A stretch of 64,000 nucleotides of DNA from an uncultured Burkholderiales bacterium (GCA_964488915.1 CAZAWU010000002.1:2572-66571), one strand, 5' to 3'. Positions 39,503-52,567 are shown, counted from the stretch's first letter. Numbers and translations: made by a program. The notes: generated by a model not told the origin, from the sequence alone.

Positions 39503-39654
39503 CCGCCCGCCGCACCGCCACTTTTACGAACCTTTTACAAACTCTTCACCAACACCTCACCACTCATTCACGCCGCCTGACTAGTCTTCGCACTGAGCCG
39601 CGACCCGCTTTGGGCGCGGCGGCTAAAGGACTAACAAGGACAAAGGAAACGGCG

Positions 39655-40992
39655 ATGAATCAACCCCAAGGCATCTCAAACATTTGCGCGCGCTTGTGCG
39701 CCGCGCTGCTCGCGTCGGCCGCGCTCGCGGCGCACGCGCAACCGGTCCAGTTGAACGTGGCGCTCGGTTCGCCGCTGGTGCTGGCTGGCGCCAAACAGAC
39801 GGCGGTCGTCAAAGTGGCGCTGACCGGCGCCGAAGCGCAATCCCAGGGCGAGCGCACGCCCGTCAATGTCGCGATCGTGCTCGACCGTTCCGGTTCGATG
39901 GCGGGCGAGAAAATCGTGCACGCCAAGCAAGCGGCCGCCATGGCGGTCGAGCGGCTCAACGCCAGCGACGTGGCCAGCGTCATCACTTACGATGATGTGG
40001 TGAAGGTGGTTGTGCCCGCCACCAAAGTTGCCGACAAAAGTGTGTTCCGCCGCGCCATCGCTCGCATCCAGCCGGGCGGCAGCACGGCGCTATTTGCCGG
40101 CGTCGCTAAAGGCGCCACCGAAGTCGAAAAATACTTGCAGCGCGAACGCGTGAACCGCGTCATTCTGCTTTCGGACGGTTTGGCCAACGTGGGGCCTAGC
40201 TCGCCGGAGGAGCTGGGCAGCCTAGGCGCCTCACTCGCCAAGCAAGGCATCAGCGTCACCACCATCGGCCTGGGCTTGGGCTACAACGAAGACTTGATGG
40301 CACGCCTGGCCGGCATGAGCGACGGCAGCCACGCCTTCGTCGAGCATCCGCAAGAGCTCGCCCGCATCTTCGACGCCGAGTTCGGTGACGTGCTCTCCGT
40401 GATCGCGCAAGAGGTCAAGATCAACATCCGCTGCGCCGACGGTATCAAGCCGCTGCGCGTGCTGGGCCGCGAAGCCGATATCGCCGGACAAAACGTGGTG
40501 TTGGGCATGAACCAGCTTTACGGCGCACAAGAGAAGTTCGTGCTACTGGAAGTGGAAGTGCCCGCGGGGCAGGCCGGCCAGCAGCGCGCCGTGGCGGAGG
40601 TCGACGTCGCCTACTTCAATACCGGCACGCGCCAGACCGAGCGTTTAGCGAACAAAGTCGCGCTAAGCTACAGCGAATCAGCAGACAAAGTAGCGCGTGC
40701 CACCGACAAGAAAGTCATGGCGGACACGGTGGAACAAGTCGCCAATACCATCAGCAAAGAAGCAGTAAAGCTCAAGGATGAAGGCAAGATCACCGAAGCG
40801 CGCAGCAAACTCGAGGAAGGTGCGAAATACTTGGAGCAAAATGCGCAGCAATACCAAGACCCGAAACTGGGCCGCTTGAGCAGCGAGTTCAAGAAGGATT
40901 CCGCGGAGCTGGACGACGAGAAGGAGTGGAATCGCAAACGCAAGAGCATGGTCAAGCGGCAGTACTCAACCGAGAAGCAACAGAAATTTTGA
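39655..40992 (+). CDS. secreted von Willebrand factor A (VWA) domain protein with a charged coiled-coil-like tail
   Basis: Start at ATG 39655 (signal peptide ...CAALLASAALAAHA). MIDAS motif VLDRSGSMAGEKI. C-terminal K/E-rich region. Confidence 0.8.
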   Translation: MNQPQGISNICARLCAALLASAALAAHAQPVQLNVALGSPLVLAGAKQTAVVKVALTGAEAQSQGERTPVNVAIVLDRSGSMAGEKIVHAKQAAAMAVERLNASDVASVITYDDVVKVVVPATKVADKSVFRRAIARIQPGGSTALFAGVAKGATEVEKYLQRERVNRVILLSDGLANVGPSSPEELGSLGASLAKQGISVTTIGLGLGYNEDLMARLAGMSDGSHAFVEHPQELARIFDAEFGDVLSVIAQEVKINIRCADGIKPLRVLGREADIAGQNVVLGMNQLYGAQEKFVLLEVEVPAGQAGQQRAVAEVDVAYFNTGTRQTERLANKVALSYSESADKVARATDKKVMADTVEQVANTISKEAVKLKDEGKITEARSKLEEGAKYLEQNAQQYQDPKLGRLSSEFKKDSAELDDEKEWNRKRKSMVKRQYSTEKQQKF

Positions 40993-41060
40993 CAGTAACC
41001 GAGACAGTCGCCGCCGCGTGAATAGCCGCGGCGGCGTTTTCGATCGGATGAGCGAAACGC

Positions 41061-42632
41061 TTGCGCCGTAAAGCCCTAATCGCCCTGCTTCTTATCGTCG
41101 TCCTGCCGGTCGCGGCGTTGGGCTGGCTGGGCTTGCGCCTGCAAAGCAGCGAACGCCAAGCGTTAGAGCATCGCGTGCAGACGCTGATCGATGCGCAACT
41201 GGTCGCCATCGACGATTCACTGAGCGCCTATTTCACCGCCCGCCGCGGCGAGTTGCTTGCGGAGATCGATGCGCTCGCCGACGGTACCGCAGCCCTGCGC
41301 AACTATGCACGCGAGCGGCCTCTGGTGCGGCAGGTCTTTATCATGGACGCGAAAGGCGAGCGCCTGCACCCACCGACCAACGCAGCGCTGACCGAAGCCG
41401 AGCGGCGCTTTCTCCAGCGCAGCGCCGACATCTGGCGCAATCGCGACATTCTCTACCAAAGCGTCGAGGCGCTGCCCCCGCAAGAACAGTCGAGCAACGG
41501 CGAGCCGAAGCGCAGCGACGGTTGGTACGTGTGGCATTGGGGCACAGAAACGGACCTCATCTTCTGGCGGCGCAGCGCACAGCGCCTGATCGGTATCGAA
41601 CTCGAACCGGCACGTGTGAAAGCCGACTTGATCGCCCTATTGCCGGCCAGCGGTAGCGCCGATGACAGGCTCGGGCAGGCGCGCGTGCAATTGATCGACG
41701 ATCGCGGCACCGTGGCTTACCAGTGGGGCGCGTATCAACCCAAGGCCGAAGCAAAAGCCTTGGCGCTGCGGCCGCTTAGCCACCCGCTCGGCAGTTGGAA
41801 GTTGGCCTACTACGCGCCGGCCGTTGCCGCCGGCGGCGGCGCGCGTGCTCTTACCCTCGGCAGCGCACTCGCCGCGCTGGCGCTGGCGCTCGGCGGGCTG
41901 GGTTGGTTCTTGTATCGTGAGCACACGCGCGCAGCGCGCTTGGCCGCGCAGCGCGTCAACTTCGTCAATCAGGTATCGCACGAACTGAAAACGCCGCTGA
42001 CGAATATTCGCATGTACGCCGAACTGCTGAACGAACACATCGAAGCCGCCGAGGAAAAACCGCGCCGCTACCTCGACATCATCGTCGCCGAGAGCCAACG
42101 CTTGTCGCGCCTAATCTTGAACGTACTTAGCTTCGGACGCATGCAGCGCGAGGTGCTGCGGCTGCATCGCCAACCGGGCTGCGTCGATGACGTAGTCGGC
42201 GCGACGCTGGAGGCATTTCGCCCGGCGTTGGAGACCAAGGCCATGGCGATCTCGTTCGCGCGCGGCGCACCCGCTACCGTCAGCCTCGACCGCGATGCGC
42301 TCGAGCAAATCCTCAACAATCTGTTCAGCAACGTCGAAAAGTACGCGGCCGGCGGCGCGCGCTTGGAAGTGACCACATCGCAAGATGCGCGGCGCAGCAC
42401 CGTGCGTGTGCGCGACTACGGTGCCGGCATTCCCAGACGCGAGCGCGAGCGCATCTTCGAACCCTTCTATCGCCTGAGCTCCAAACTCAGCGATGGCGTC
42501 ACCGGCACCGGTATCGGCTTGACTATCGCACGCGAACTGGCGCGCCAACACGGCGGCGATCTGCAGCTACTCGACAGCGAACCCGGCGCGCTCTTTGAAG
42601 TAAGTTTGGAGACAGCCGGAGGTCCGACATGA
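41061..42632 (+). CDS. two-TM sensor histidine kinase with a large periplasmic domain
   Basis: 523 aa, TTG start. H-box VSHELKTPLTNIRMYAELL and an HATPase_c domain (GTGIGLTIARELARQHGG). Confidence 0.88.
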   Translation: MRRKALIALLLIVVLPVAALGWLGLRLQSSERQALEHRVQTLIDAQLVAIDDSLSAYFTARRGELLAEIDALADGTAALRNYARERPLVRQVFIMDAKGERLHPPTNAALTEAERRFLQRSADIWRNRDILYQSVEALPPQEQSSNGEPKRSDGWYVWHWGTETDLIFWRRSAQRLIGIELEPARVKADLIALLPASGSADDRLGQARVQLIDDRGTVAYQWGAYQPKAEAKALALRPLSHPLGSWKLAYYAPAVAAGGGARALTLGSALAALALALGGLGWFLYREHTRAARLAAQRVNFVNQVSHELKTPLTNIRMYAELLNEHIEAAEEKPRRYLDIIVAESQRLSRLILNVLSFGRMQREVLRLHRQPGCVDDVVGATLEAFRPALETKAMAISFARGAPATVSLDRDALEQILNNLFSNVEKYAAGGARLEVTTSQDARRSTVRVRDYGAGIPRRERERIFEPFYRLSSKLSDGVTGTGIGLTIARELARQHGGDLQLLDSEPGALFEVSLETAGGPT

Positions 42633-43315
42633 AAGTGCTGGTCGCCGAAGACGATGCGCACATCCGTCGCGGGCTGCAAGATCTGCTCGAAGGCGAGGGT
42701 TACACCACCATCGCCGCGCCCGACGGCGACCAAGCGCTGGCGCTGTTCGGCAGCGAACGGCCCGACTTTGTGCTGCTCGACATCATGATGCCCAAGAGCG
42801 ACGGCTACCAAGTATGCCGCGAGATCCGGCGCGTGAACGCCGAGGTGCCAGTGATTTTCATCTCCGCCAAGTCGGAGGAGATCGACCGCGTGGTCGGCTT
42901 GGAACTCGGCGCGGACGATTTCATCATGAAACCATTCGGCACGCGCGAAGTTGTCGCGCGCATCCGCGCAGTCACGCGTCGCTGTCTGCGCCGCAGTGAG
43001 GAAACCGCTGCAGCGCAAGTCTTGCGCATGGGTGATTTGGAAGTGCTGCCGGCCGAACTGCGTGCGCGCCGGGGCGATCATGTTATTGAGCTGAGTCTGC
43101 GCGATGTGCGCATCCTGCAGCTGCTGCACCGCCAGCGCGGCAAAGTCGTCAGCCGCGAAGAGTTGTACAGCGAATGCTGGGGCCGCGCGCATTTTCCCAG
43201 CAGTCGCACGCTCGATCAGCACGTCTCAAAGCTGCGCAAAGCGATCGAGCTCGATGCGCGCAACCCTGCCATCGTTCTCACCGTGCACGGTATCGGCTAC
43301 CGCTACGACGGTTAG
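42629..43315 (+). CDS. OmpR-family response regulator
   Basis: 228 aa. Receiver domain (VLLDIMMPKSDG) plus winged-helix output (TVHGIGYRY). ATGA overlap with the kinase stop. Confidence 0.92.
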   Translation: MKVLVAEDDAHIRRGLQDLLEGEGYTTIAAPDGDQALALFGSERPDFVLLDIMMPKSDGYQVCREIRRVNAEVPVIFISAKSEEIDRVVGLELGADDFIMKPFGTREVVARIRAVTRRCLRRSEETAAAQVLRMGDLEVLPAELRARRGDHVIELSLRDVRILQLLHRQRGKVVSREELYSECWGRAHFPSSRTLDQHVSKLRKAIELDARNPAIVLTVHGIGYRYDG

Positions 43316-43418
43316 CCACGCACAAGTCCGGGCGCGCCCGCCTCGGCTTCGTCGTATCTCGGCGAGTCGCTGGGTTATACTCGTTCGAGCCCGCTTTCGC
43401 TTTACTACCACACTTGAC

Positions 43419-44441
43419 ATGAATCGCAACGACGCTCTGCTCGCGGATTGGCATGCGCGTGCCCAACGTCTCCAAGACGAGGTACGCCATGCGGTGATCG
43501 GTCAGGACCCCATCGTGAAACTGATCGCCACTGCCATATTCGCGCGCGGCCATGTGCTGCTCGAAGGCGATGTCGGCGTCGGCAAGACCACCATGCTGCG
43601 CGCGTTCGCGCGCGCCGTCGGCGGAGCGTTTGCGCGCGTAGAAGGCACGGTCGATCTGCTACCGAACGATCTGCTCTACTACACCTACATCGCCGCCGAC
43701 GGCAACCCGCGCGTCGATCCGGGTCCACTGCTGCAGCATGAAGACCGGTTATCAATCTTCTTTTTCAATGAGATCAATCGCGCGCGCCCGCAAGTGCACT
43801 CGCTGCTGTTGCGCGCAATGGCGGAGAAGACCGCGTACGCTTTCAGCCGCGAGTACAGCTTCCCGCATTTGACGGTGTTCGCCGACCGCAACCGCGTGGA
43901 GAAGGAGGAGACATTCGAAATCTCCTCCGCGGCGCGCGATCGCTTCATGTTCGAGTTGCAGGTGGAAACGCCGCGCGACGAGCCGACGCAGCGTGCGCTC
44001 ATGTTCGATCCGGTGTTCCATGATACCGAGCTGCTGCTCGAGCGCGTCGCCGCCGCGGTGCTGCCGTATGCCGAACTAAACGTCATCGGCGCGCTCATTC
44101 AAGAAGAGGTGCGTGCAAGCCCCGAGTTGGAGCGCTACGCGCTGCAACTTTGGCAGGCCACGCGTGCGCCGCAGGATTTCGGCGTGCGCATCGATGGGGT
44201 CAACATGGCGCTGTTGCTCGCAGCCGGTGCCAGCCCGCGCGGCATGAGCATGCTGCTACGTGCCGCACGCGTCACCGCCTGGCTCGACAATCGCACGTTC
44301 GTCACGCCGGAGGATATCCACGGCGTATTTGGCCCGGCGATAGTGCATCGCATCTTTCTGAGCCCGGTGTACGAATTGCGCCGCGCCGAGATCGCCCACG
44401 CGCTCGCAGCGCAGATTCTCGCCAAGATTGCCGCGCCTTAA
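43419..44441 (+). CDS. MoxR-family AAA+ ATPase
   Basis: Start at ATG 43419 (MNRNDALLADW...). Walker A LLEGDVGVGKTTM and Walker B region IFFFNEINRARPQV. About 340 aa. Confidence 0.9.
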   Translation: MNRNDALLADWHARAQRLQDEVRHAVIGQDPIVKLIATAIFARGHVLLEGDVGVGKTTMLRAFARAVGGAFARVEGTVDLLPNDLLYYTYIAADGNPRVDPGPLLQHEDRLSIFFFNEINRARPQVHSLLLRAMAEKTAYAFSREYSFPHLTVFADRNRVEKEETFEISSAARDRFMFELQVETPRDEPTQRALMFDPVFHDTELLLERVAAAVLPYAELNVIGALIQEEVRASPELERYALQLWQATRAPQDFGVRIDGVNMALLLAAGASPRGMSMLLRAARVTAWLDNRTFVTPEDIHGVFGPAIVHRIFLSPVYELRRAEIAHALAAQILAKIAAP

Positions 44442-44518
44442 CTTATACCGGCAGCAGGATTATCCAGTCTGTCAAAATACACAACATTCTTCATAGAATA
44501 GAACGTACAGTATTAACG

Positions 44519-45421
44519 ATGTCGGGACAGATCCATTACCGCATTGCCTGGCGCGCCCGCACTGCTTTCCCCGGTGCGCATGCAAGCACGCAAAGCGGCG
44601 GCGGGCAGGAATTCAGTCATCACGTGCCGCTCATCGACGCGCCCGATCCGCGCCGGCTCGACCTGCATGCTTCGCTCAAAGATGCGTTCGGCAGTTGGCT
44701 GGTGCGGCGCTTCCGCCAGCGCAGCGGCATCTCCGTTTATGTGCTGGCGGACCTATCGGCTTCGATGGGATTTCGCGGTCGCGCGCATAAACTCAACACC
44801 CTCGCCGACCTCACGCAAGCGCTCGCCTACTCCGCGCATCGCAGCGGCGACCGGTTCGGATTTTTCGGTTGTGGCGAAAGTTTGCGCGCAGAGTGGTTTT
44901 TGCCCGCAAGCCAACAAGCGGGCGCCGGCCTCGCGCTGGCTGAGCGGCTGCGACAGTACACCCCCACGGACACGCATGCGGACGGGTTGCTGGAGGGTTG
45001 CGCTCACATCGCGCGGCAGCGCTCGTTGGTATTCCTGGTGTCGGACTTTCACTTCGATCTGGCTCTGCTCGACGAATTGCTCGCCCGGTTGACACGGCAT
45101 CAAGTGATCCCGGTGGTACTGTGGGATCGCGCCGAGTTCGAAACACCGGCGCGCTGGGGCTTGGCGCGCCTGCGCGATGCGGAATCGCAGCGGACGCGCT
45201 TCGTCGTTCTGACACCGCGGTTTGCAGCCGATCTGTCGCGGCTGTTCGCGCAACGCCGTGCGCTGCTCGCCGCGCGCTTCATGCAGCAACAGACCAAACC
45301 GCTGTTCCTGTTCGACGGCTTCGATGCCGATCTCATTACCGCCTATTTCCACTCCGACGCTCCCGGCGACCCGGTCAGCGCTGACGACGATGGCCAAGCG
45401 ATTCCTGCTTACGCTCACTAG
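44519..45421 (+). CDS. DUF58-family protein (MxaS-like)
   Basis: Start at ATG 44519. VWA-like degenerate MIDAS VLADLSASMGF. Always found next to MoxR ATPases. About 300 aa. Confidence 0.8.
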   Translation: MSGQIHYRIAWRARTAFPGAHASTQSGGGQEFSHHVPLIDAPDPRRLDLHASLKDAFGSWLVRRFRQRSGISVYVLADLSASMGFRGRAHKLNTLADLTQALAYSAHRSGDRFGFFGCGESLRAEWFLPASQQAGAGLALAERLRQYTPTDTHADGLLEGCAHIARQRSLVFLVSDFHFDLALLDELLARLTRHQVIPVVLWDRAEFETPARWGLARLRDAESQRTRFVVLTPRFAADLSRLFAQRRALLAARFMQQQTKPLFLFDGFDADLITAYFHSDAPGDPVSADDDGQAIPAYAH

Positions 45422-46304
45422 CGCGCTGCTCGCGTGCTCGCTGCGCGGCGCGGCCGCGGCCCCGGTTGTGCAAGAACTCTCCAATACTGTCTCGCAGCAT
45501 TTCGGCTTACTGGTCGGCGACCGGTTCACACAGCAGGTGCGTGTCGCGGTGGCGGCGCCGCACGAGCTCGATCGCAATTCATTGCCAAAGAAGGGGCGCG
45601 CCAACCGCTGGCTCGAATTGCAACACGTCGAGCTCAGCCACACTGCTGCCGCCACGGCGCACGACTACCTACTGACGCTGAAGTACCAAGTGATCACGAG
45701 TGACGAGATCGTCAGTCTCGCCGCGCTGCCGCGCCCGGCCCTGCGCTTCAGCGCTGCCGGGATGGAATCGCTCGCACTGCGCCTGGGCGAACAGCACGTG
45801 AGCATCTCGCCCATCAGCGATACCGATGCTTGGGAGCGCGAGGGCTTGCAGGCGCTGCGCCCGGAGCATGGGACGCCGCTCATGGACGTGACCGCGACGA
45901 AACAGCGCATGGCGGGCTACGCCGCGGCATTGGCGCTGCTTGGATTGTTCTGGCTCTATCGCATCTACGGTGCGCCGTTTGTTGCCCGCAGCCGCGGCCC
46001 GTTCATGCGCGCCTGGCGCGCTTTGCGACGACAACAGGCCGGCGATGCCGCCGCGCTTCGCAGTGCGATGTTGCAACTGCATCGTGCCTTCGACGCTACT
46101 TTCGGCAAGAGCGTTTTACGCAGTGAAGTCGAGACTTTTCTTGTGCAGCACCCACGCTTCGCGGCGCAGCGCGACGCCATCGAGCGTTTCTTCGACGCCT
46201 CGCGCTACGCGTTTTACGGCGATGCCGGCGGCAGCGCAGCGACTCTGGCCGAGTTGCGTGAGTTCGCTCGGCGCTTGAGTTTGGTCGAGCGAGGATTGAC
46301 GTGA
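45390..46304 (+). CDS. signal-peptide plus single-TM protein of the MoxR/VWA cluster (position of MxaA / BatD-like)
   Basis: ATG 45390 (MAKRFLLTLTSALLACSL...). Internal TM GYAAALALLGLFWLYRIYG. Overlaps the DUF58 gene end by 32 nt. The assignment rests on position only. Confidence 0.55.
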   Translation: MAKRFLLTLTSALLACSLRGAAAAPVVQELSNTVSQHFGLLVGDRFTQQVRVAVAAPHELDRNSLPKKGRANRWLELQHVELSHTAAATAHDYLLTLKYQVITSDEIVSLAALPRPALRFSAAGMESLALRLGEQHVSISPISDTDAWEREGLQALRPEHGTPLMDVTATKQRMAGYAAALALLGLFWLYRIYGAPFVARSRGPFMRAWRALRRQQAGDAAALRSAMLQLHRAFDATFGKSVLRSEVETFLVQHPRFAAQRDAIERFFDASRYAFYGDAGGSAATLAELREFARRLSLVERGLT

Positions 46305-47272
46305 AGTTTGAGTATTCGTGGGCGCTCCTGTTGCTGCCGCTCGCGCTGCTAGCTCTGTTCGGCCGCAGCCGCAGCGCGCTCACCTATCCTTGGCTTGCGC
46401 TGACACCGCGGCACCGCGCTTCGACTCTGCTCGATTGGCTGCTGCGCGCGTTGCTCCTGCTGGCGCTGGCGGGGCTGGCGTTCGCGTTGGCACGGCCGTA
46501 CCAGCCGGAAGCGCGCGTCGAGCGCTACGGGCGCGGCGCGCAGATCGTGCTGCTGCTCGATCGCAGCCGCAGCATGGATCAAGGCTTCGGCCGCCGCGAA
46601 GGCGACGGTTCCGGCGAAAGCAAGGCGCGGGTGGCGCAGCGACTGCTGCTGCAATTCACCGCCAAACGCCGCGACGATCTGTTCGGCATGATGGCTTTCA
46701 GCGGTTTGCCGATCCCGGTGGCCGATTTCACGCAGCAGCCCGAGTTCGTGCGCGCCGCCATCGCGGCGACGACATTGGACAAAGGCTTGTCGGAAACAGA
46801 CATCGGCCGCGGTCTGCTCGCCGCACTGCACTATTTCGACGATCGCCCCTACACCGGCTCGCGCATCGTGCTGCTGGTTTCCGATGGCGGCGATCGCATT
46901 GACGTCGATCTACGCCAAGAGATCACGCGCCTGGCGCGCTTGCATCGAGTCGGACTCTATTGGATTTACATACGCTCCTTCTACAGCCCCGGGCTGAAAG
47001 ACGTTTCGGACGAGTACGCGCAGACCGTGCCAGAGATGTTTCTGCATCGCTTCTTCCAATCTCTCGGCGTGCCCTATCGCAACTACGAGGCCGAGGATCC
47101 GGAAGCGATGGCGCGCGCAATCGAAGACGTGAACCGCTTGGAGACGCTGCCGATCCGCTACCAAGCCGTGCTAGCGCGCCAAGACCTCGCGCATTGGGGT
47201 TATGCGGTGGCTTTTGTCGCACTGGCATTGGTCGCCGCCGCGCGCTTTGCCGAACGCACGCGCTGGGCATGA
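46301..47272 (+). CDS. membrane-anchored VWA domain protein (BatA/MxaC-like)
   Basis: 323 aa. N-terminal MKFEYSWALLLLPLALLALF (BatA-type N-terminus) and MIDAS LLLDRSRSMDQ. GTGA overlap with the upstream stop. Confidence 0.85.
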   Translation: MKFEYSWALLLLPLALLALFGRSRSALTYPWLALTPRHRASTLLDWLLRALLLLALAGLAFALARPYQPEARVERYGRGAQIVLLLDRSRSMDQGFGRREGDGSGESKARVAQRLLLQFTAKRRDDLFGMMAFSGLPIPVADFTQQPEFVRAAIAATTLDKGLSETDIGRGLLAALHYFDDRPYTGSRIVLLVSDGGDRIDVDLRQEITRLARLHRVGLYWIYIRSFYSPGLKDVSDEYAQTVPEMFLHRFFQSLGVPYRNYEAEDPEAMARAIEDVNRLETLPIRYQAVLARQDLAHWGYAVAFVALALVAAARFAERTRWA

Positions 47273-47829
47273 GCACGCGCACGTTGCCGCGCTCCGCACG
47301 GTGGAGTATCGCCGCCGCCTTACTGTTGTTGGCGTTGCTCGCGTTCGAGACGTGGCGCTTGCAGCAGCAGCAAGGCGTCAACGCGCGCGTTCTTGCAGAA
47401 AATCCGCAGACGCTCTCCGCGACCGATGCGCTGGAAGTGATTCATGCCGAAGCGCTGCGTCTAGGGCATGCCGGCAAAGCACGCGAGGCGCATGAATTGT
47501 ATGCGCGCGTGGCGATGCACGGCTCGCGCGAGTTGCGGCTGCGCGCGGAATACAACCACGCTAACTTGTTGTTGCGTGAAGCGCTGGCGCTGCGCGGCGA
47601 CAGTGAAACGGACGACGGACGTTCACTTCCCGTGCTGGAGCTGGCCAAGGAGTCGTACCGTAAGGTGCTGCGCGAAGCGCCGGAAATTTGGGACGCACGC
47701 TACAACTTGGAACGCGCTTTGCGCCTTGCGCCTGAGCCGCCCGAGGTGGAGGAAGGCGCCGGCCCGGCCCCGCGCCAGCGCGAGCGTGCCCCGACGACTA
47801 TGCGCGGGGAAACTTTGGGGTTGCCATGA
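47269..47829 (+). CDS. small TM / TPR-like protein (BatC/MxaK-like position)
   Basis: ATG 47269 (ATGA overlap). TM SIAAALLLLALLAF followed by a helical-repeat-like region ending ...WDARYNLERALRL. Confidence 0.55.
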   Translation: MSTRTLPRSARWSIAAALLLLALLAFETWRLQQQQGVNARVLAENPQTLSATDALEVIHAEALRLGHAGKAREAHELYARVAMHGSRELRLRAEYNHANLLLREALALRGDSETDDGRSLPVLELAKESYRKVLREAPEIWDARYNLERALRLAPEPPEVEEGAGPAPRQRERAPTTMRGETLGLP

Positions 47830-48788
47830 AGCTGCGCTTGCGCAAGGGCGAGGCTTGGGCGCTGCTGACCGCCCTGTTGCTGATCGCAGCGGCGCTGCTG
47901 CGGCCCAGCATGCAACGCAGCGGCGCGCTGCATTCGTTGCTGATAGTAATCGACATCACGCAGAGCATGAACGTGCGCGACGTTCGGCTCGAAGGTCAGC
48001 CGGCTAGCCGGCTGGTGGCGGCGAAATCCGCCGTTCGCCAAACCATGCTCGACCTGCAATGCGGTTCGCGCGTCGGGCTCGCTGTTTTCAGCGAATACCG
48101 GACCCTCACGCTGTTCGCGCCGGTCGAGGTATGCGCCAATTTCACCGAACTGAGCGCGGCGCTCGAGCGCATCGACGGCCGCATGTCTTGGGCCGGCGCC
48201 AGCGAAATCGCCAAAGGCGTGAGTTTCGCGCTGCGCACACAACACGCCTTAGCAGAGCGCCCGTTGATCGTATTCTTCACCGACGGGCACGAGTCGCCTC
48301 CGCTCGATCCGCGCTTTCGCACTCGCTTCGACTCGATGCCGGGACCAGAGCGCGGCGTTTTCGTCGGCATGGGCGGCGATCGGCCGGCGCCGATCCCCAA
48401 GTTTGGCCCAGCGGGGCAGCCGCTGGGGTTCTGGCGCGCCGACGAAGTGCTGCACGACGATCCGCACAACCTCGGGCGCGGCGGCAGCGTGCGCGAGGAA
48501 GGCACCGTAGACGAGAGCGGCGCACAGATCGCGGCCAAGCGCACCGGCAACGAACACTTATCGTCGCTGCGCGAGCACTACCTGCGCGGCTTGAGCGAGG
48601 AAACGGGGTTCGGTTACGTGCGTTATGCCGACGCGCTACAGACTAGCGCCGCACTGCGGGCGTTACCGCCAAGCAAAGTGGCGCGCTCCGCCGTGGCTAT
48701 CGATTGGCTACCGGCCGCCGCCGCGCTGCTAGTGCTTGTGGCAACATTGCTGACCGGCCTGCTGCCGCGCCGATCCGCCTTGGCCTGA
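47826..48788 (+). CDS. membrane-anchored VWA domain protein (BatB/MxaL-like)
   Basis: 320 aa. N-terminal TM, MIDAS IVIDITQSMNVRD, C-terminal TM. ATGA overlap with the upstream stop. Confidence 0.85.
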   Translation: MKLRLRKGEAWALLTALLLIAAALLRPSMQRSGALHSLLIVIDITQSMNVRDVRLEGQPASRLVAAKSAVRQTMLDLQCGSRVGLAVFSEYRTLTLFAPVEVCANFTELSAALERIDGRMSWAGASEIAKGVSFALRTQHALAERPLIVFFTDGHESPPLDPRFRTRFDSMPGPERGVFVGMGGDRPAPIPKFGPAGQPLGFWRADEVLHDDPHNLGRGGSVREEGTVDESGAQIAAKRTGNEHLSSLREHYLRGLSEETGFGYVRYADALQTSAALRALPPSKVARSAVAIDWLPAAAALLVLVATLLTGLLPRRSALA

Positions 48789-48790
48789 CC

Positions 48791-50230
48791 ATGCTCTACT
48801 ATCCGCGCTCGTTCTTAAAGCTCATTCTGTTGGCCTTGACGCTGGTCACGCTGCCGCTCGGCTTCGCCTTTTACACCGCGGCGAAATCGATCGACCGCCT
48901 CGCCAACCAAAGCCAACGCGCGGTGTACGAAGCCGTGCAAGCCACGCAAGCCGGCAAGACGCTGCGCGACCGTGTGGTGGACCTAGAGCGGGCGGCGCGG
49001 CAATACTTGGTGCTGGAAGAGCCCACGGTGTTTGAAGCCTACAAGAAGATCCACGGCGATTTCGTCAATGCCGCGCGCGGCCTCGAGACCAACCCGCTCG
49101 ATCCCGAGCAGAGGAAGCAGCTCAAGCAACTGGTCGAACGCGAAGCCAAACTCTACGGCACACTGCTGGCCACACCCGACCGCTCCTTCGATGTGAAGAC
49201 CATGATCGGCGAATACGAAGGGCTCGGCAAATCCGCGCAGCAACTTTATCGCAGCACCGATGCGCTGGTAGAGCGCCAAGTGGAAACGATGCGCAGCGCC
49301 ACGGCCAAAGCGCAAGAAACCATCTTTTGGCAAGGCATCGCGTTGGTGCCGCTTGCGGTGCTGGTGGCGATCGGCGCCACCATTCTGATCACGCGGCCAT
49401 TCGAGCAGATCAACGACGCCATCCGCCAAATGGGTGATGGTGAGCTGCTCAAACCGGTCAAAGTCGTTGGTCCACACGATCTAGTCAACTTGGGCCGCCG
49501 GCTGGATTGGCTGCGCTTGCGCTTGCTCGAGCTCGAACAGCAGAAGAACAAATTCTTGCAGCGCATCTCCCACGAACTGAAAACGCCGTTGACCGCCCTG
49601 CGCGAAGGCAGCGAGCTGTTAGCCGACGAGGTGGTCGGCAAGCTGACCGAACAACAGCGCGAGGTGTGCACGATCCTGCGCCACAAATCGGTTCAGTTGC
49701 AGCGCCTGATCGAAAACTTGCTCAACTACAGCGCTACCGAATTCCACCGCGCGCTGCCGCGACCGGAACTCATCGATCTCTCAGCGATCCTAACGAAGGT
49801 AGTAGCCGAACAAAAACTCGCGTTGCGCGCACGCGGTTTGCGCTGCAAGTACGAAGGAACGCCGATCCAACTCGAAGCCGATCCCGAGATGCTTCGGGTC
49901 ATCTTCGATAACCTGTTGTCAAATGCAATCAAGTTTTCCCCGCAGGGGGGCGCGATTATAATCAGTGGTGCCGTGCGCGTACCGCACGCAATCATCGAAG
50001 TAGCAGATCAGGGCCCAGGCGTCGGCGATGCGGATATGCACCGCATATTCGATGCATTCTACGAGGGACAGGCGCCGGCGGAGAGCCCCGTCAAAGGCAG
50101 CGGTCTAGGGTTAGCCATCTGCCGCGACTACGTGAATGCGCACCACGGGCGGATCGAGGTCGTGCCCGGCGTCGCCTCCGGCGCGCTCTTCCGGGTAACG
50201 TTACCACTAGAACAAGGCCCACAAACATGA
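48791..50230 (+). CDS. sensor histidine kinase (two TM, HAMP, HisKA, HATPase; GlrK/QseE-like architecture)
   Basis: ATG 48791, 2 nt after the VWA gene stop. H-box ISHELKTPLTALREGSELL and G-box GSGLGLAICRDY. About 479 aa. Confidence 0.88.
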   Translation: MLYYPRSFLKLILLALTLVTLPLGFAFYTAAKSIDRLANQSQRAVYEAVQATQAGKTLRDRVVDLERAARQYLVLEEPTVFEAYKKIHGDFVNAARGLETNPLDPEQRKQLKQLVEREAKLYGTLLATPDRSFDVKTMIGEYEGLGKSAQQLYRSTDALVERQVETMRSATAKAQETIFWQGIALVPLAVLVAIGATILITRPFEQINDAIRQMGDGELLKPVKVVGPHDLVNLGRRLDWLRLRLLELEQQKNKFLQRISHELKTPLTALREGSELLADEVVGKLTEQQREVCTILRHKSVQLQRLIENLLNYSATEFHRALPRPELIDLSAILTKVVAEQKLALRARGLRCKYEGTPIQLEADPEMLRVIFDNLLSNAIKFSPQGGAIIISGAVRVPHAIIEVADQGPGVGDADMHRIFDAFYEGQAPAESPVKGSGLGLAICRDYVNAHHGRIEVVPGVASGALFRVTLPLEQGPQT

Positions 50231-50997
50231 ACGCTAGAACAACGACGATAACAGCGATCGTATTGCACTTGGCGGCTTGCACGCCGCTCGAACCGGTCGC
50301 GCAACCGAACACGCCGCCGCCCGTGCCGATTATCCAGGCGCGTAGCAGCGACACGGATTTGCTGCTCGCGCGCTTCGAAGTAACGCGCACTTTTTCCAAG
50401 GAAGAGCTTAAAGCGGAAACAGCCAGCGCGCAACGCCGGCTCGCCACCATGCCGACGCCGTACGCGCGCACCGAGTTGGCGTTGTTGTTGAGCGCTCCGC
50501 ATGCCGAAACGCGCGATCTGCCGCAGGCATTGAAATTGCTTCAGGATGTCATACGAGATGCGCAAAGCAGCGGCGCGTTAAAAAACTTTGCTTCCGCACT
50601 GCATGAGCATTTGACTGCGGCGGCGCGGCAAGAAGAGAACGTCTCCAATTTGTCACAGCGAGTGAGCGCCGAACGCAAGCGCGCGGATCAACTCCAAACC
50701 AAACAGGATGGCGCTGCCCAACAATTCGAACAAAAACTCAAGGACGAGCAAAAGCGCTTGGAAGCGGTCATCAACCGGCAGGAAGAGAACATCCAGCAAC
50801 TCACCGGAAGACTGCGCGAAGAACAAAAACGCGCCGACGACTTGCAGGAAAAGCTCGACGCAATCATGAAGATCGAGAAGAGCTTGATCGAGCGTCAGCA
50901 AACCAAGGAGGCGCCGCCAAAGGAAGCAGCGCCCAAGGAAACACCGAAAGAATCACCCAAGGACATACCGAGAGAAGCGCCGAAGGAACCCAAGTAA
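50227..50997 (+). CDS. coiled-coil lipoprotein with a Pro-Lys-Glu repeat tail (QseG-like position)
   Basis: Lipobox VLHLAAC, long Q/E/K/R-rich helical region, tail EAPPKEAAPKETPKESPKDIPREAPKEPK. ATGA overlap with the kinase stop. Confidence 0.75.
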   Translation: MNARTTTITAIVLHLAACTPLEPVAQPNTPPPVPIIQARSSDTDLLLARFEVTRTFSKEELKAETASAQRRLATMPTPYARTELALLLSAPHAETRDLPQALKLLQDVIRDAQSSGALKNFASALHEHLTAAARQEENVSNLSQRVSAERKRADQLQTKQDGAAQQFEQKLKDEQKRLEAVINRQEENIQQLTGRLREEQKRADDLQEKLDAIMKIEKSLIERQQTKEAPPKEAAPKETPKESPKDIPREAPKEPK

Positions 50998-50999
50998 GC

Positions 51000-52358
51000 A
51001 TGACCACTCCTTACAAAATTCTGCTCGTCGATGATGACTTGGAGATATTGCGGCTGATATCGATCCGGCTCACCGGCGCTGGCTATCAAGTGACCGCGCT
51101 GGACAGCGCGGAGAAAGCCTTGGCCAGTTTGCAGCAAACGCGCCCGCATATCGTCGTCACCGATTTGAAAATGAGCGGGATGAGCGGCATGGCGCTATTC
51201 GACGCCGTGCAGACAATCAACCCGGCGCTGCCGGTGATCGTCCTAACCGCGCACGCGACAGTACCGGATGCGGTGGAAGCGACAAAGCGCGGCGTGTTCG
51301 GCTATTTGACCAAACCGTTTGACAGCAAGGTTCTGCTTGCGCACATCGAGCGCGCGCTCGCGCTGAGCGGTAATAGCGCGGGGCCGGCCGATGCCGGTGC
51401 GGACTGGCGCCAAGATATCGTCACACGTAGCGCGCGCATGGAAGATTTGCTTAGCCAGATACTGCTGGTGGCGGACAGCGATGCCAGCGTTCTCATTCAA
51501 GGTGAGAGCGGCACCGGCAAGGAAATGTTGGCGAAGGCGCTGCACAAGGCCAGCCGGCGCCGCGACCGCCCGTTTGTGGCGATCAATTGCGGCGCCATCC
51601 CCGAAGCGCTGCTCGAGTCGGAGCTATTCGGTCACACCAAGGGGTCTTTCACCGGTGCGATGCGCGATCATCAAGGCCTATTCGTCGCTGCTAACGGCGG
51701 GACGTTGTTGCTCGACGAGATTGGCGACATGCCGCTGGCGCTGCAAGTCAAGCTGCTGCGCGTGCTGCAAGATCGCGCGGTGCGCCCCGTCGGTTCGACG
51801 CAAACCCAGGCGGTCGATGTGCGCATTATCTCCGCGACGCATCGCAATCTCGAACAGCACATGGCGCAAGGCCAATTCCGTGAGGATTTGTTCTACCGCC
51901 TGAACGTCGTCTCCTTGGTGGTGCCGCCGCTAGCCGAGCGCCGCGAGGACGTGCCGCTGCTTGCCACATACTTTCTCAATAAACTGGCGCAACGCTACCG
52001 CAAACACATTACCGGATTCGCACCCGATGCGATGGAGGCATTGGTGAGCGCAGCTTGGCCAGGAAACGTGCGCCAGCTCATCAATGTCGTCGAGCAAGCG
52101 ATGGCGCTTTGCACCACGCCGATCGTGCCCCTCTCACTAGTGCAGAAGTGCTTGCAGGGCGAGCACGAGACCATCCCGTCGTTTGAAGACGCGCGCCGGC
52201 GCTTTGAACGTGACTACCTCATTCAGGTACTAAAGATAACCAACGGCAACGTGACGCACGCAGCACGCCTTGCTCGCCGCAACCGCACTGAGTTCTACAA
52301 GCTGCTGCAACGCAACCAGCTCGACCCGGGCACCTTCAAAGCCGAGGCGCACGCCTAA
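51000..52358 (+). CDS. sigma-54-dependent response regulator (NtrC family; GlrR/QseF-like)
   Basis: 452 aa. Receiver domain, AAA+ domain with GESGTGKEMLAKALH and ESELFGHTKGSFTGA (GAFTGA-type loop), and a C-terminal Fis-type HTH. Confidence 0.93.
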   Translation: MTTPYKILLVDDDLEILRLISIRLTGAGYQVTALDSAEKALASLQQTRPHIVVTDLKMSGMSGMALFDAVQTINPALPVIVLTAHATVPDAVEATKRGVFGYLTKPFDSKVLLAHIERALALSGNSAGPADAGADWRQDIVTRSARMEDLLSQILLVADSDASVLIQGESGTGKEMLAKALHKASRRRDRPFVAINCGAIPEALLESELFGHTKGSFTGAMRDHQGLFVAANGGTLLLDEIGDMPLALQVKLLRVLQDRAVRPVGSTQTQAVDVRIISATHRNLEQHMAQGQFREDLFYRLNVVSLVVPPLAERREDVPLLATYFLNKLAQRYRKHITGFAPDAMEALVSAAWPGNVRQLINVVEQAMALCTTPIVPLSLVQKCLQGEHETIPSFEDARRRFERDYLIQVLKITNGNVTHAARLARRNRTEFYKLLQRNQLDPGTFKAEAHA

Positions 52359-52551: not shown

Positions 52552-52567
52552 TGGCACGTTGTCTGCT
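52552..52567 (+). promoter_or_regulatory. sigma-54 (-24/-12) promoter
   Basis: TGGCACGTTGTCTGCT, with GG at 52553-52554 and GC at 52565-52566. The spacing is exactly that of TGGCACG-N4-TTGCW (11/12 of the fixed consensus positions by my count). Confidence 0.6.

What the first reader, a model, noticed from the sequence alone, without database searches (positions are those of the whole stretch)
43419..48788. mxaRSACKL / Bat-like MoxR-DUF58-VWA module with no client enzyme in sight
Six consecutive genes make up the module:
- MoxR AAA+ ATPase
- DUF58 protein
- signal-peptide plus one-TM protein
- TM-anchored VWA protein
- small TM/TPR-like protein
- second TM-anchored VWA protein

Start/stop overlaps occur at 46301 (GTGA), 47269 (ATGA) and 47826 (ATGA). 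The order equals mxaR-S-A-C-K-L of methylotroph methanol dehydrogenase clusters, where the module is needed for maturation and metal insertion of a periplasmic enzyme. It also resembles the Bacteroides batA-E aerotolerance operon.

No mxaF/xoxF-type PQQ dehydrogenase, cytochrome cL or pqq gene is present anywhere in this 64-kb window. The substrate of this chaperone-like module is therefore unknown. The last VWA gene ends 2 nt before a sensor kinase gene, which suggests the module and a signalling system are co-expressed.
Basis: partly seen in the sequence, partly recalled or inferred. Interest (0 to 1): 0.65.

Follow-up and report, generated by a model that had tools for sequence, protein, structure and literature searches.

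The report
Detached methanol-dehydrogenase maturation gene set
These six genes are a real copy of the machinery that methanol-using bacteria need to load the metal into their PQQ methanol dehydrogenase; the likely client, a lanthanide-type XoxF enzyme, sits on another contig, so the "missing client" is largely explained, and such detached copies are already reported.

Summary
Six co-directional genes lie at 43419-48788, with overlaps at 46301, 47269 and 47826, and a kinase gene starts 2 nt after the last one.

The genes are true mxaRSACKL homologues, not generic Bat genes:
- The third protein belongs to the MxaA family.
- The ATPase carries signature motifs shared with MxaR of canonical mxaFJGIRSACKLD clusters.
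- The same gene order recurs in all 80 related loci.

The window lacks a client, but the genome does not. It encodes a lanthanide-signature XoxF (with cytochrome and MoxJ-like genes beside it in the sister genome), pqqC, and at least eleven more PQQ dehydrogenase genes.

The nearest modules outside the family have xoxF directly after the sixth gene. Across 301 genomes of the order, MxaA and XoxF-like genes co-occur strongly (40 of 46 against 19 of 255).

Adjacency to the kinase-lipoprotein-sigma-54 regulator trio is conserved in all 13 assessable genomes of this family, mostly with gaps of 23 nt or less. It is found in none of 62 loci elsewhere. The trio exists alone across the order.

Verdict: a new member of a known kind. 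The modestly interesting points are the family-specific junction with a GlrK/QseG/GlrR-like system and the implied service to a lanthanide enzyme.

The parts
43419..44441 (+). mxaR-type MoxR AAA+ ATPase (340 aa), cytoplasmic
   Evidence: - Pfam AAA_3 81 bits and AAA_lid_2.
- Walker A GDVGVGKTT and Walker B FFFNEINRARPQV are shared with MxaR of canonical mxaF clusters. The genome's two generic MoxR paralogues lack them.
- Orthologues at 66-83% identity occur in all 14 genomes of the family.
44442..44518 (+). 77-nt AT-rich spacer between mxaR and mxaS; the point where synteny breaks in relatives
   Evidence: - Sequence read.
- In genus g2, two unrelated genes are inserted here.
- In genus g4, the MoxR gene lies on another contig beside uvrC, and surE precedes DUF58.
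44519..45421 (+). mxaS-like DUF58 protein (300 aa), cytoplasmic VWA-like with MIDAS DLSAS
   Evidence: - Pfam DUF58 81 bits.
- MIDAS motif present.
- No hydrophobic segment.
- It labels the second gene in all related loci.
45390..46304 (+). mxaA-like bitopic membrane protein (304 aa)
   Evidence: - Homologues are named 'mxaA protein' by JGI.
- The alignment shows a conserved LHRAFD motif.
- The AF2 model has mean pLDDT 85. It shows a signal helix (2-17), a beta-sandwich (27-139), a long helix (168-201) and a helical C-terminal domain (204-300).
- The fold search gave only generic Ig-like or TRAP-beta-like sandwiches.
46301..47272 (+). mxaC-like VWA protein (323 aa) with two N-terminal and one C-terminal hydrophobic helices, MIDAS DRSRS
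   Evidence: Pfam VWA_2 and VWA. Motif. Hydrophobic segments. It is always the best match of the fourth gene in related loci.
47269..47829 (+). mxaK-like small protein (186 aa): N-terminal anchor helix, helical region, Pro/Glu-rich tail
   Evidence: No Pfam match. Faint BatC match at E = 0.005. It matches the fifth gene of canonical mxa clusters at 26-114 bits.
47826..48788 (+). mxaL-like VWA protein (320 aa) anchored at both ends, MIDAS DITQS
   Evidence: - Pfam VWA_2 46 bits. Motif.
- The N-terminus carries 4 Lys/Arg and the C-terminal tail has RR, so the VWA domain is probably periplasmic. This is an inference.
- It is the best match of the sixth gene in related loci.
48791..52358 (+). Neighbouring trio, not part of the Mxa module: HAMP histidine kinase (48791-50230), coiled-coil lipoprotein (50227-50997), sigma-54 response regulator (51000-52358)
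   Evidence: - The regulator's best NCBIfam match is GlrR, at 620.8 bits against a cut-off of 763.
- The trio is found in all 14 genomes of the family and in other families of the order without the module.
- A sigma-54 -24/-12 element, TGGCACGTTGTCTGCT, lies at 52552-52567.
39655..43315 (+). Genus-specific upstream insert, probably a separate unit: secreted VWA protein (39655-40992), terminator (41009-41036), histidine kinase (41061-42632), OmpR-type regulator (42629-43315)
   Evidence: Pfam. Terminator. The insert is present only in the window and in the same-genus genome G001.

Best explanation
The six genes are a functional MxaRSACKL-type maturation module. It belongs to the beta/gammaproteobacterial clade whose members commonly sit next to lanthanide-type xoxF. 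In this family the module has become physically detached from its client.

Shown elsewhere for MxaFI: MxaR, S, A, C, K and L are all needed to put the metal ion into the PQQ-loaded active site of the periplasmic methanol dehydrogenase (PMC12276312).

Inferred here, mechanism:
- The cytoplasmic MxaR ATPase and the DUF58/MxaS adaptor act on the cytoplasmic helical domain of the bitopic MxaA.
- MxaA's periplasmic beta-sandwich works together with the membrane-anchored, MIDAS-bearing VWA domains of MxaC and MxaL and with the helical MxaK.
- Together they deliver the metal to a PQQ dehydrogenase.

Inferred here, client:
- The most likely client is XoxF, encoded beside metH on another contig with XoxG-like and MoxJ-like genes.
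- The genome's other lanthanide-signature PQQ alcohol dehydrogenases may be served too.
- The metal is therefore probably a lanthanide rather than Ca2+.

Junction with the kinase:
- The GlrK/QseG/GlrR-like trio immediately downstream is an older, autonomous unit.
- In the ancestor of this family the module came to lie directly upstream of it. mxaSACKL and the trio are probably co-transcribed.
- Nothing shows that the trio regulates or senses the module.
For: Identity:
- MxaA-family homology.
- R-S-A-C-K-L order in all 80 related loci. In 39 of the 60 assessable ones a PQQ dehydrogenase lies within 5 kb upstream of mxaR; the six read all carry the Ca-type DYA signature of mxaF.
- MxaR-clade motifs and intact MIDAS motifs.
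- dN/dS of 0.10-0.21 against the sister genome, although dS is saturated.

Client:
- The genome has a XoxF-like gene scoring 669 bits on TIGR03075, with the DFD lanthanide signature. It also has pqqC.
- In sister genome G001, xoxF is followed by a c-type cytochrome and a MoxJ-family protein that scores 272.7 bits on TIGR03871, above the cut-off.
- XoxF orthologues (80-93% identity) are present in 8 of 8 high-quality genomes of the family.
- In the concatenated S+A+C+L tree, the family's modules form a clade with support 1.0 together with L016 and L017, where xoxF follows mxaL directly. L014 and L022 have the same layout.
- In 301 genomes of the order, 40 of 46 MxaA-positive genomes have a XoxF-like gene, against 19 of 255 MxaA-negative ones (Fisher p = 7e-29). 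In at least 8 genomes xoxF lies directly after the module on the same strand.

Function of the module: PMC12276312.

Detached extra mxaRSACKL copies, including in strains without mxaFI: PMC4109929.

Junction:
- The mxaL-to-kinase gap is 1-23 nt in 9 of 11 measured genomes of the family.
- No terminator-like site lies between the genes.
Against: - No genome of this family has xoxF near the module.
- XoxF occurs without MxaA in 19 sampled genomes, so the module is not generally required for XoxF.
- A review states that mxaACKLD and mxaRSEH are not required for XoxF (PMC11845868).
- In M. extorquens AM1, mxaRSACKL is strongly down-regulated with lanthanum while XoxF1 works (PMC6414531).
- The co-occurrence statistic is not corrected for phylogeny. 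Its threshold also admits MxaF-like enzymes.
- Topology and the coupling mechanism rest on a hydrophobicity scan and one AF2 model.
Confidence: 0.6

Rival explanations
1. The module serves not XoxF specifically, but one or several of the other PQQ alcohol dehydrogenases in this unusually quinoprotein-rich genome (PedH/ExaF-like or uncharacterised types).
For: - At least 12 TIGR03075-family genes are present, five above the cut-off.
- Six carry the lanthanide-type Asp signature.
- The module is linked to none of them, so linkage cannot choose between them.
Against: - Where clade-B modules are linked to an enzyme, it is always the XoxF orthologue, at 70-83% identity to the genome's own XoxF.
- Within the family only XoxF was tested for conservation. 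It is present in all high-quality genomes.
Confidence: 0.17
2. In this family the module has been recruited to a general envelope role of the Bat/RL3499 kind. It forms one functional operon with the GlrK/QseG/GlrR-like envelope signalling system and is independent of PQQ enzymes.
For: - The mxaSACKL-kinase junction is kept, mostly with gaps of 23 nt or less, in all 13 assessable genomes of the family. Meanwhile the upstream side was rearranged three different ways.
- The module is never linked to xoxF in the family.
- The proteins show faint similarity to BatA and BatC.
Against: - The adjacency traces to a single ancestral event and is absent in 62 of 62 loci outside the family.
- The trio works alone elsewhere in the order.
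- The only good sigma-54 promoter lies after glrR, not before the module.
- The module is orthologous to xoxF-adjacent modules.
- Bat-specific models score far below their cut-offs.
Confidence: 0.15
3. The genes are a decaying remnant of a lost MxaFI system, as proposed for partial mxa clusters in Sphaerotilus.
For: - PMC13300288 interprets mxa fragments in genomes that have only XoxF as remnants.
- No MxaF-type (DYA) enzyme is found in this genome.
Against: - All six frames are intact with conserved catalytic and MIDAS motifs.
- dN/dS is 0.10-0.21.
- Orthologues persist across four genera.
- The module belongs to the clade linked to xoxF, not to the mxaF-linked clade.
Confidence: 0.04
4. It is a MoxR-vWA conflict or defence system.
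For: The ATPase also matches Pfam bpMoxR (MoxR of MoxR-vWA-beta-propeller ternary systems) at 37 bits.
Against: - That match overlaps the general MoxR core.
- PADLOC gives nothing beyond P-loop-level hits with E of about 5e-4.
- There is no beta-propeller or effector gene.
- The genes sit among housekeeping genes and are vertically conserved.
Confidence: 0.01

Closest known systems
mxaRSACKL accessory genes of the mxaFJGIRSACKLD methanol dehydrogenase operon (Methylorubrum extorquens, Hyphomicrobium, Paracoccus)
   Same: - Same six proteins in the same order.
- MxaA-family third gene.
- MxaR-specific Walker A and B motifs.
- MIDAS-bearing S, C and L proteins.
- All six are shown to be needed for Ca2+ insertion into MxaFI (PMC12276312).
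   Different: - No mxaFJGI upstream and no mxaD downstream.
- The module belongs to a separate, well-supported beta/gamma clade.
- The genome has only lanthanide-signature enzymes, so the metal and the client differ.
Detached or extra mxaRSACKL clusters of Methylophilaceae and other XoxF-bearing Betaproteobacteria (PMC4109929)
   Same: - Copies lie away from the dehydrogenase structural genes and lack mxaD.
- They are present even in strains without mxaFI and belong to the core genome together with xoxF.
   Different: - Here there is a single copy.
- It is joined to a two-component operon.
- In one genus the ATPase gene is split off to another locus.
xoxF-adjacent mxaRSACKL modules of Rhodocyclaceae/Burkholderiales MAGs (loci L014-L017, L022, L042)
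   Same: They are the closest relatives of the window's module outside its family. XoxF there is 70-83% identical to the genome's own XoxF.
   Different: There xoxF follows mxaL directly. Here the kinase-lipoprotein-regulator trio occupies that position.
Bacteroides/Leptospira Bat (aerotolerance) operon and other MoxR-DUF58-VWA envelope operons
   Same: The general architecture is shared: MoxR, DUF58, a small membrane protein, TM-anchored VWA proteins and a TPR-like protein.
   Different: - The BatA N-terminal domain scores below threshold. The BatA, BatB and BatC models reach 15-32 bits against cut-offs of 175-380.
- No BatD or BatE is present.
- The third gene is MxaA-family.
GlrK(QseE)/QseG/GlrR(QseF) with sigma-54-dependent glmY of Enterobacterales (for the neighbouring trio)
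   Same: The kinase-lipoprotein-sigma-54 regulator order is shared. A sigma-54 promoter lies directly downstream.
   Different: - The regulator is below the GlrR equivalog cut-off.
- The kinase's best NCBIfam hit is CreC.
- No such operon is known to be preceded by an Mxa-type module.

Membership tests
MxaRSACKL maturation module | Six genes in the order MoxR - DUF58 - MxaA - VWA - MxaK - VWA on one strand, tightly packed | tested here: met
   The same order holds in 80 of 80 related loci, with position-specific best matches.
MxaRSACKL maturation module | The third gene is homologous to MxaA of canonical mxaFJGIRSACKLD clusters | tested here: met
   - Homologues are named mxaA by JGI.
- The conserved LHRAFD block retrieved Hyphomicrobium, Xanthobacter, Paracoccus and Methylopila mxa clusters.
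MxaRSACKL maturation module | The ATPase belongs to the MxaR subclade rather than to generic MoxR | tested here: met
   GDVGVGKTT and FFFNEINRARPQV are shared with MxaR of mxaF-linked loci. The genome's two generic MoxR paralogues lack them. Those paralogues are about 30% identical to this ATPase.
MxaRSACKL maturation module | Physical linkage to a PQQ methanol dehydrogenase gene (mxaF or xoxF) | tested here: not met
   No PQQ dehydrogenase lies on contig C2. xoxF is on C253, and it is unlinked in every genome of the family. The literature accepts detached copies as members (PMC4109929).
MxaRSACKL maturation module | Co-occurrence with a PQQ methanol dehydrogenase and PQQ synthesis in the same genome | tested here: met
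   Across the order the split is 40 of 46 against 19 of 255.
MxaRSACKL maturation module | Required for metal insertion into the dehydrogenase | not testable with these tools
   Shown only for MxaFI (PMC12276312). For XoxF the literature says it is not required in model alphaproteobacteria (PMC11845868, PMC6414531).
Bat aerotolerance operon | BatA-type N-terminal domain (PF07584) and BatA/BatB/BatC family matches | tested here: not met
   PF07584 scores 17.3 bits against a cut-off of 25.9. BatA_Lepto reaches 32 of 380, BatB_Lepto 15 of 350 and BatC_Lepto 16 of 175.
Bat aerotolerance operon | BatD and BatE genes following the VWA genes | tested here: not met
   The genes after VWA2 are a histidine kinase, a coiled-coil lipoprotein and a sigma-54 regulator.
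GlrK/QseG/GlrR (QseEGF) system (neighbouring trio) | The regulator is a GlrR equivalog | tested here: inconclusive
   NF011695 is the best hit, at 620.8 bits, but the cut-off is 763.
GlrK/QseG/GlrR (QseEGF) system (neighbouring trio) | Kinase - lipoprotein - sigma-54 regulator order with a sigma-54 promoter downstream | tested here: met
   The sigma-54 element lies at 52552-52567 with one mismatch.
Anti-phage MoxR-vWA systems | Match to known defence-system protein models | tested here: not met
   PADLOC gives only two P-loop-level hits with E of about 5e-4.

The most novel reading that the evidence does not exclude
The beta/gammaproteobacterial clade of MxaRSACKL is the hitherto missing lanthanide-insertion machinery for XoxF-type dehydrogenases. 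This would run against the current statement that XoxF needs no Mxa accessory proteins.

In this family, expression of the module would also be wired into one operon with a GlrK/QseG/GlrR-like envelope sensor. Metal loading of periplasmic quinoproteins and a sigma-54/small-RNA response would then be coordinated.
Probability: 0.15. Interest if true: 0.7.

Novelty: new member of a known kind. Interest (0 to 1): 0.33.

Why it matters
How lanthanides are placed into XoxF and related enzymes is not settled. Reviews state that the Mxa accessory genes are dispensable for XoxF.

This locus and its relatives point the other way for one group of organisms:
- A distinct clade of mxaRSACKL co-occurs with lanthanide-signature xoxF across many betaproteobacterial families and often abuts it.
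- The clade is kept under purifying selection in a genome in which no Ca-signature (MxaF-type DYA) PQQ dehydrogenase was found.

This suggests a concrete experiment in cultivable relatives.

The window itself mainly contributes an annotation result: the 'orphan' module has an obvious candidate client elsewhere in the genome. It also adds a family-specific operon junction with a two-component system, whose meaning is open.

Tried and rejected
1. Joint decay of xoxF, mxaR and mxaL in family genome G009. All three are frame-broken there. So is the housekeeping metH next to xoxF, so the breaks are assembly errors and carry no signal.

2. A shared regulatory motif among the regions upstream of mxaR, mxaS, xoxF and the propeller gene. 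Only short, chance-level 10-mers were found.

3. A sigma-54 promoter in front of the module, as a GlrR target. None was found. The only good site is downstream of glrR, and the total number of hits is below the chance expectation.

4. The defence-system reading. PADLOC was negative.

5. A fold search with the MxaA model. It returned only generic Ig-like or TRAP-beta sandwiches and gave no functional lead.

6. Public sequencing runs, to test co-transcription.

7. The other two MoxR-DUF58 loci of the genome (C5, C49). They are about 30% identical, have different partners and are not near a PQQ dehydrogenase. They are not second Mxa modules.

8. Look-ups of earlier notes by place and by sequence for relatives returned nothing.


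Full report
**Observation.**
- MoxR 43419-44441
- DUF58 44519-45421
- a signal-peptide/one-TM protein 45390-46304
- VWA 46301-47272
- a small anchored helical protein 47269-47829
- VWA 47826-48788

The overlaps GTGA (46301), ATGA (47269) and ATGA (47826) are real. The kinase ATG at 48791 lies 2 nt after the TGA of the last VWA gene. Two junction details were not in the finding. A 77-nt AT-rich spacer separates MoxR from DUF58, and DUF58 overlaps the third gene by 32 nt.

Pfam confirms AAA_3 with AAA_lid_2, DUF58, and VWA_2 twice. The BatA N-terminal domain is below threshold. The third and fifth proteins match no family. DUF58 and both VWA proteins keep DxSxS/DxTxS MIDAS motifs.

**What it is.** The third protein is the most diagnostic.
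- Its database homologues are called 'mxaA protein' by JGI.
- They share a signal peptide, a periplasmic region, one TM helix and a cytoplasmic region with an invariant LHRAFD block.

Using that alignment, 80 loci were retrieved from species-representative genomes. In every one the genes around MxaA follow the order MoxR, DUF58, MxaA, VWA, small helical protein, VWA. The window's fourth and sixth proteins always match the fourth and sixth positions best. In 39 of the 60 loci with enough upstream sequence, a PQQ dehydrogenase lies within 5 kb upstream of mxaR. The six of these that were read carry the Ca-type signature DEWDYAG. They are the classical mxaFJGIRSACKL(D) clusters of Hyphomicrobium, Ancylobacter, Methyloligella, Paracoccus and others.

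The window's ATPase shares GDVGVGKTT (Walker A) and FFFNEINRARPQV (Walker B region) with these MxaR proteins. The genome's two other MoxR paralogues have the generic GxPGxGKT and LLADEINRA. They are only about 30% identical and have other partners.

The Bat-specific models score far below their cut-offs, and defence-system models do not match. The module is therefore a member of the Mxa accessory family. It resembles Bat operons only in general architecture.

**The client.** The window's contig has no PQQ dehydrogenase, but the genome has many. The genome is a 447-contig assembly estimated at 90% complete. It has 22 matches to TIGR03075, five of them above the cut-off.
- The best match, on the 5.2-kb contig C253, is cut by the contig end. 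It lies after metH and a YVTN-type propeller gene.
- In the same-genus genome G001 the full gene (601 aa, 93% identical) is followed by a c-type cytochrome. After that comes a MoxJ-family protein that scores above the TIGR03871 cut-off. This is a xoxF-xoxG-xoxJ-like cluster.
- The enzyme has DEWDFDG. This includes the extra Asp that coordinates lanthanides in XoxF and PedH and that MxaF lacks (PMC11845868).
- All six dehydrogenases of the genome that carry this motif have the Asp, and none has the MxaF-type Ala.
- pqqC is present.

**Comparative evidence for the link to XoxF.** A concatenated tree of MxaS, A, C and L splits the modules into two clades, each with support 1.0.
- One is an alphaproteobacterial clade: 37 loci with a PQQ dehydrogenase (mxaF where read) upstream and five with none in the flank.
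- The other is a beta/gamma clade that contains no mxaF-linked member.

The window's family forms a clade (support 1.0) with L016 and L017, where a lanthanide-signature xoxF follows mxaL directly. L014 and L022, which are also in the tree, have the same layout, as do L015 and L042, which were left out of it.

In an even sample of 301 genomes of the order:
- MxaA is present in 46 genomes, and a XoxF-like gene (E of 1e-120 or better) in 59.
- 40 of the 46 MxaA-positive genomes have the XoxF-like gene, against 19 of 255 MxaA-negative ones (Fisher p = 7e-29).
- The test is not corrected for phylogeny, and the threshold also admits MxaF.
- In at least eight genomes from three families, xoxF lies directly after the module on the same strand. 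In five more it is about 5.5 kb away.

Within the window's family, every high-quality genome has both the module and a XoxF orthologue, and they are always unlinked. Against the sister genome the six genes show dN/dS of 0.10-0.21, with dS saturated. This argues against a relic.

**Mechanism.**
- Shown in the literature: in M. extorquens, and in an E. coli reconstitution, MDH made without any one of mxaR, S, A, C, K or L lacks Ca2+ and is inactive. High Ca2+ in vitro rescues it (PMC12276312).
- Shown here: MoxR and DUF58 have no hydrophobic segment. VWA2 is anchored at both ends, with positive charges at its N-terminus and in its C-terminal tail. VWA1 has three hydrophobic helices, and the fifth protein has one N-terminal anchor.
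- The AF2 model of MxaA (mean pLDDT 85) shows a signal helix, a beta-sandwich (27-139), a long helix (168-201) and a cytoplasmic helical domain of about 100 residues. It has only generic Ig-like structural neighbours.
- Inferred: MxaA is the transmembrane link between the cytoplasmic ATPase-adaptor pair and the periplasmic MIDAS domains that hand the metal to the enzyme. In this organism the metal would be a lanthanide.

The last point runs against current statements that XoxF does not need these genes (PMC11845868). It also runs against the strong repression of mxaRSACKL by lanthanum in M. extorquens (PMC6414531). Those data concern the alphaproteobacterial, mxaF-linked clade.

**The kinase junction.** The downstream trio is a HAMP kinase, a coiled-coil lipoprotein and a sigma-54 regulator whose best hit is GlrR, below the equivalog cut-off.
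- The trio is found across the order. In other families unrelated genes lie upstream of it.
- In this family, mxaSACKL lies directly upstream of the trio in all 13 genomes where contigs allow a judgement. These cover genera g1, g2 and g4.
- The measured gaps are 1, 2, 7, 10, 21 (four times), 23, 78 and 139 nt.
- No terminator-like site lies at the junction.

The upstream side, in contrast, differs between genera:
- In the window's genus, a secreted VWA protein, a kinase and an OmpR-type regulator are inserted between efp and mxaR.
- In g2, two metabolic genes are inserted between mxaR and mxaS.
- In g4, mxaR stays next to uvrC while mxaSACKL and the trio lie next to surE.

Outside the family, none of 62 assessable loci has a kinase after mxaL. 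The only good sigma-54 promoter in the region is after glrR (52552-52567).

The adjacency is therefore one ancestral event that has been stably kept. Co-transcription is likely. Functional coupling is possible but unsupported.

**Novelty.** Detached mxaRSACKL copies without mxaD, including in strains lacking mxaFI, are described for Methylophilaceae (PMC4109929). Mxa fragments are also reported in XoxF-only Sphaerotilus (PMC13300288). The locus is thus a new member of a known kind.

What is not described, to my knowledge:
- the operon junction with a GlrK/QseG/GlrR-like system;
- the separability of mxaR at the AT-rich spacer;
- the occurrence of the module in a genome in which no Ca-signature (MxaF-type DYA) PQQ dehydrogenase was found.

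**Limits.**
- The genome is an incomplete metagenome assembly.
- The XoxF clade was assigned by signature and similarity, not by a dedicated tree.
- All statements about the client and the metal are inferences from gene context and co-occurrence.

Noticed in passing
window 39520-39575 (upstream of the secreted VWA gene that starts at 39655): - Five half-sites are phased at 11 bp: TTTTAC, TTTTAC, CTTCAC, CCTCAC, ATTCAC.
- The hexamers are conserved in the same-genus genome, while the spacers between them differ.
- This looks like an OmpR/PhoB-type binding array.
- The adjacent OmpR-family regulator (42629-43315) is the obvious candidate. That would tie the upstream kinase-regulator pair to the secreted VWA gene rather than to the Mxa module.
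   Followed up: partly
window 43419-44441 (residues 50-58 and about 118-130 of the ATPase): All MxaR-clade ATPases, including those of canonical mxaF operons, have Asn in place of the Walker-B Asp (FFFNEINRA against LLADEINRA). They also have Val in place of the Walker-A Pro (GDVGVGKTT). This also explains the low AAA_3 score: 81 bits, against about 210 for the genome's generic MoxR paralogues.
   Followed up: partly
window 41009-41036: A strong terminator-like hairpin (10 G-C pairs followed by TTTT) lies right after the secreted VWA gene. It separates that gene from the following kinase-regulator pair.
   Followed up: no
window about 43375-43395: A TATACT element about 36 nt upstream of the mxaR start (its last base lies 36 nt before the ATG) is conserved between the window and the sister genome in an otherwise diverged spacer. 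It is a candidate -10 box for a promoter of mxaR's own.
   Followed up: no
own genome, contigs C253, C64, C28, C6, C166, C62, C156, C65, C5, C434, C71, C203 and others: The genome has an unusually large set of PQQ-dependent dehydrogenase genes: 22 matches to TIGR03075, representing at least 12 genes. Every one that carries the motif has the lanthanide-type Asp. The organism looks heavily invested in lanthanide quinoproteins.
   Followed up: partly
L133 and L134 (genome G009 of the same family): Frame breaks occur in metH, xoxF, mxaR and mxaL alike. The assembly appears to be riddled with indel errors and should not be used to infer pseudogenes.
   Followed up: yes
window 52552-52567: A sigma-54 -24/-12 element (TGGCACGTTGTCTGCT, one mismatch) lies about 200 nt after the GlrR-like gene. 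It is the only good match in the 64-kb window.
   Followed up: partly
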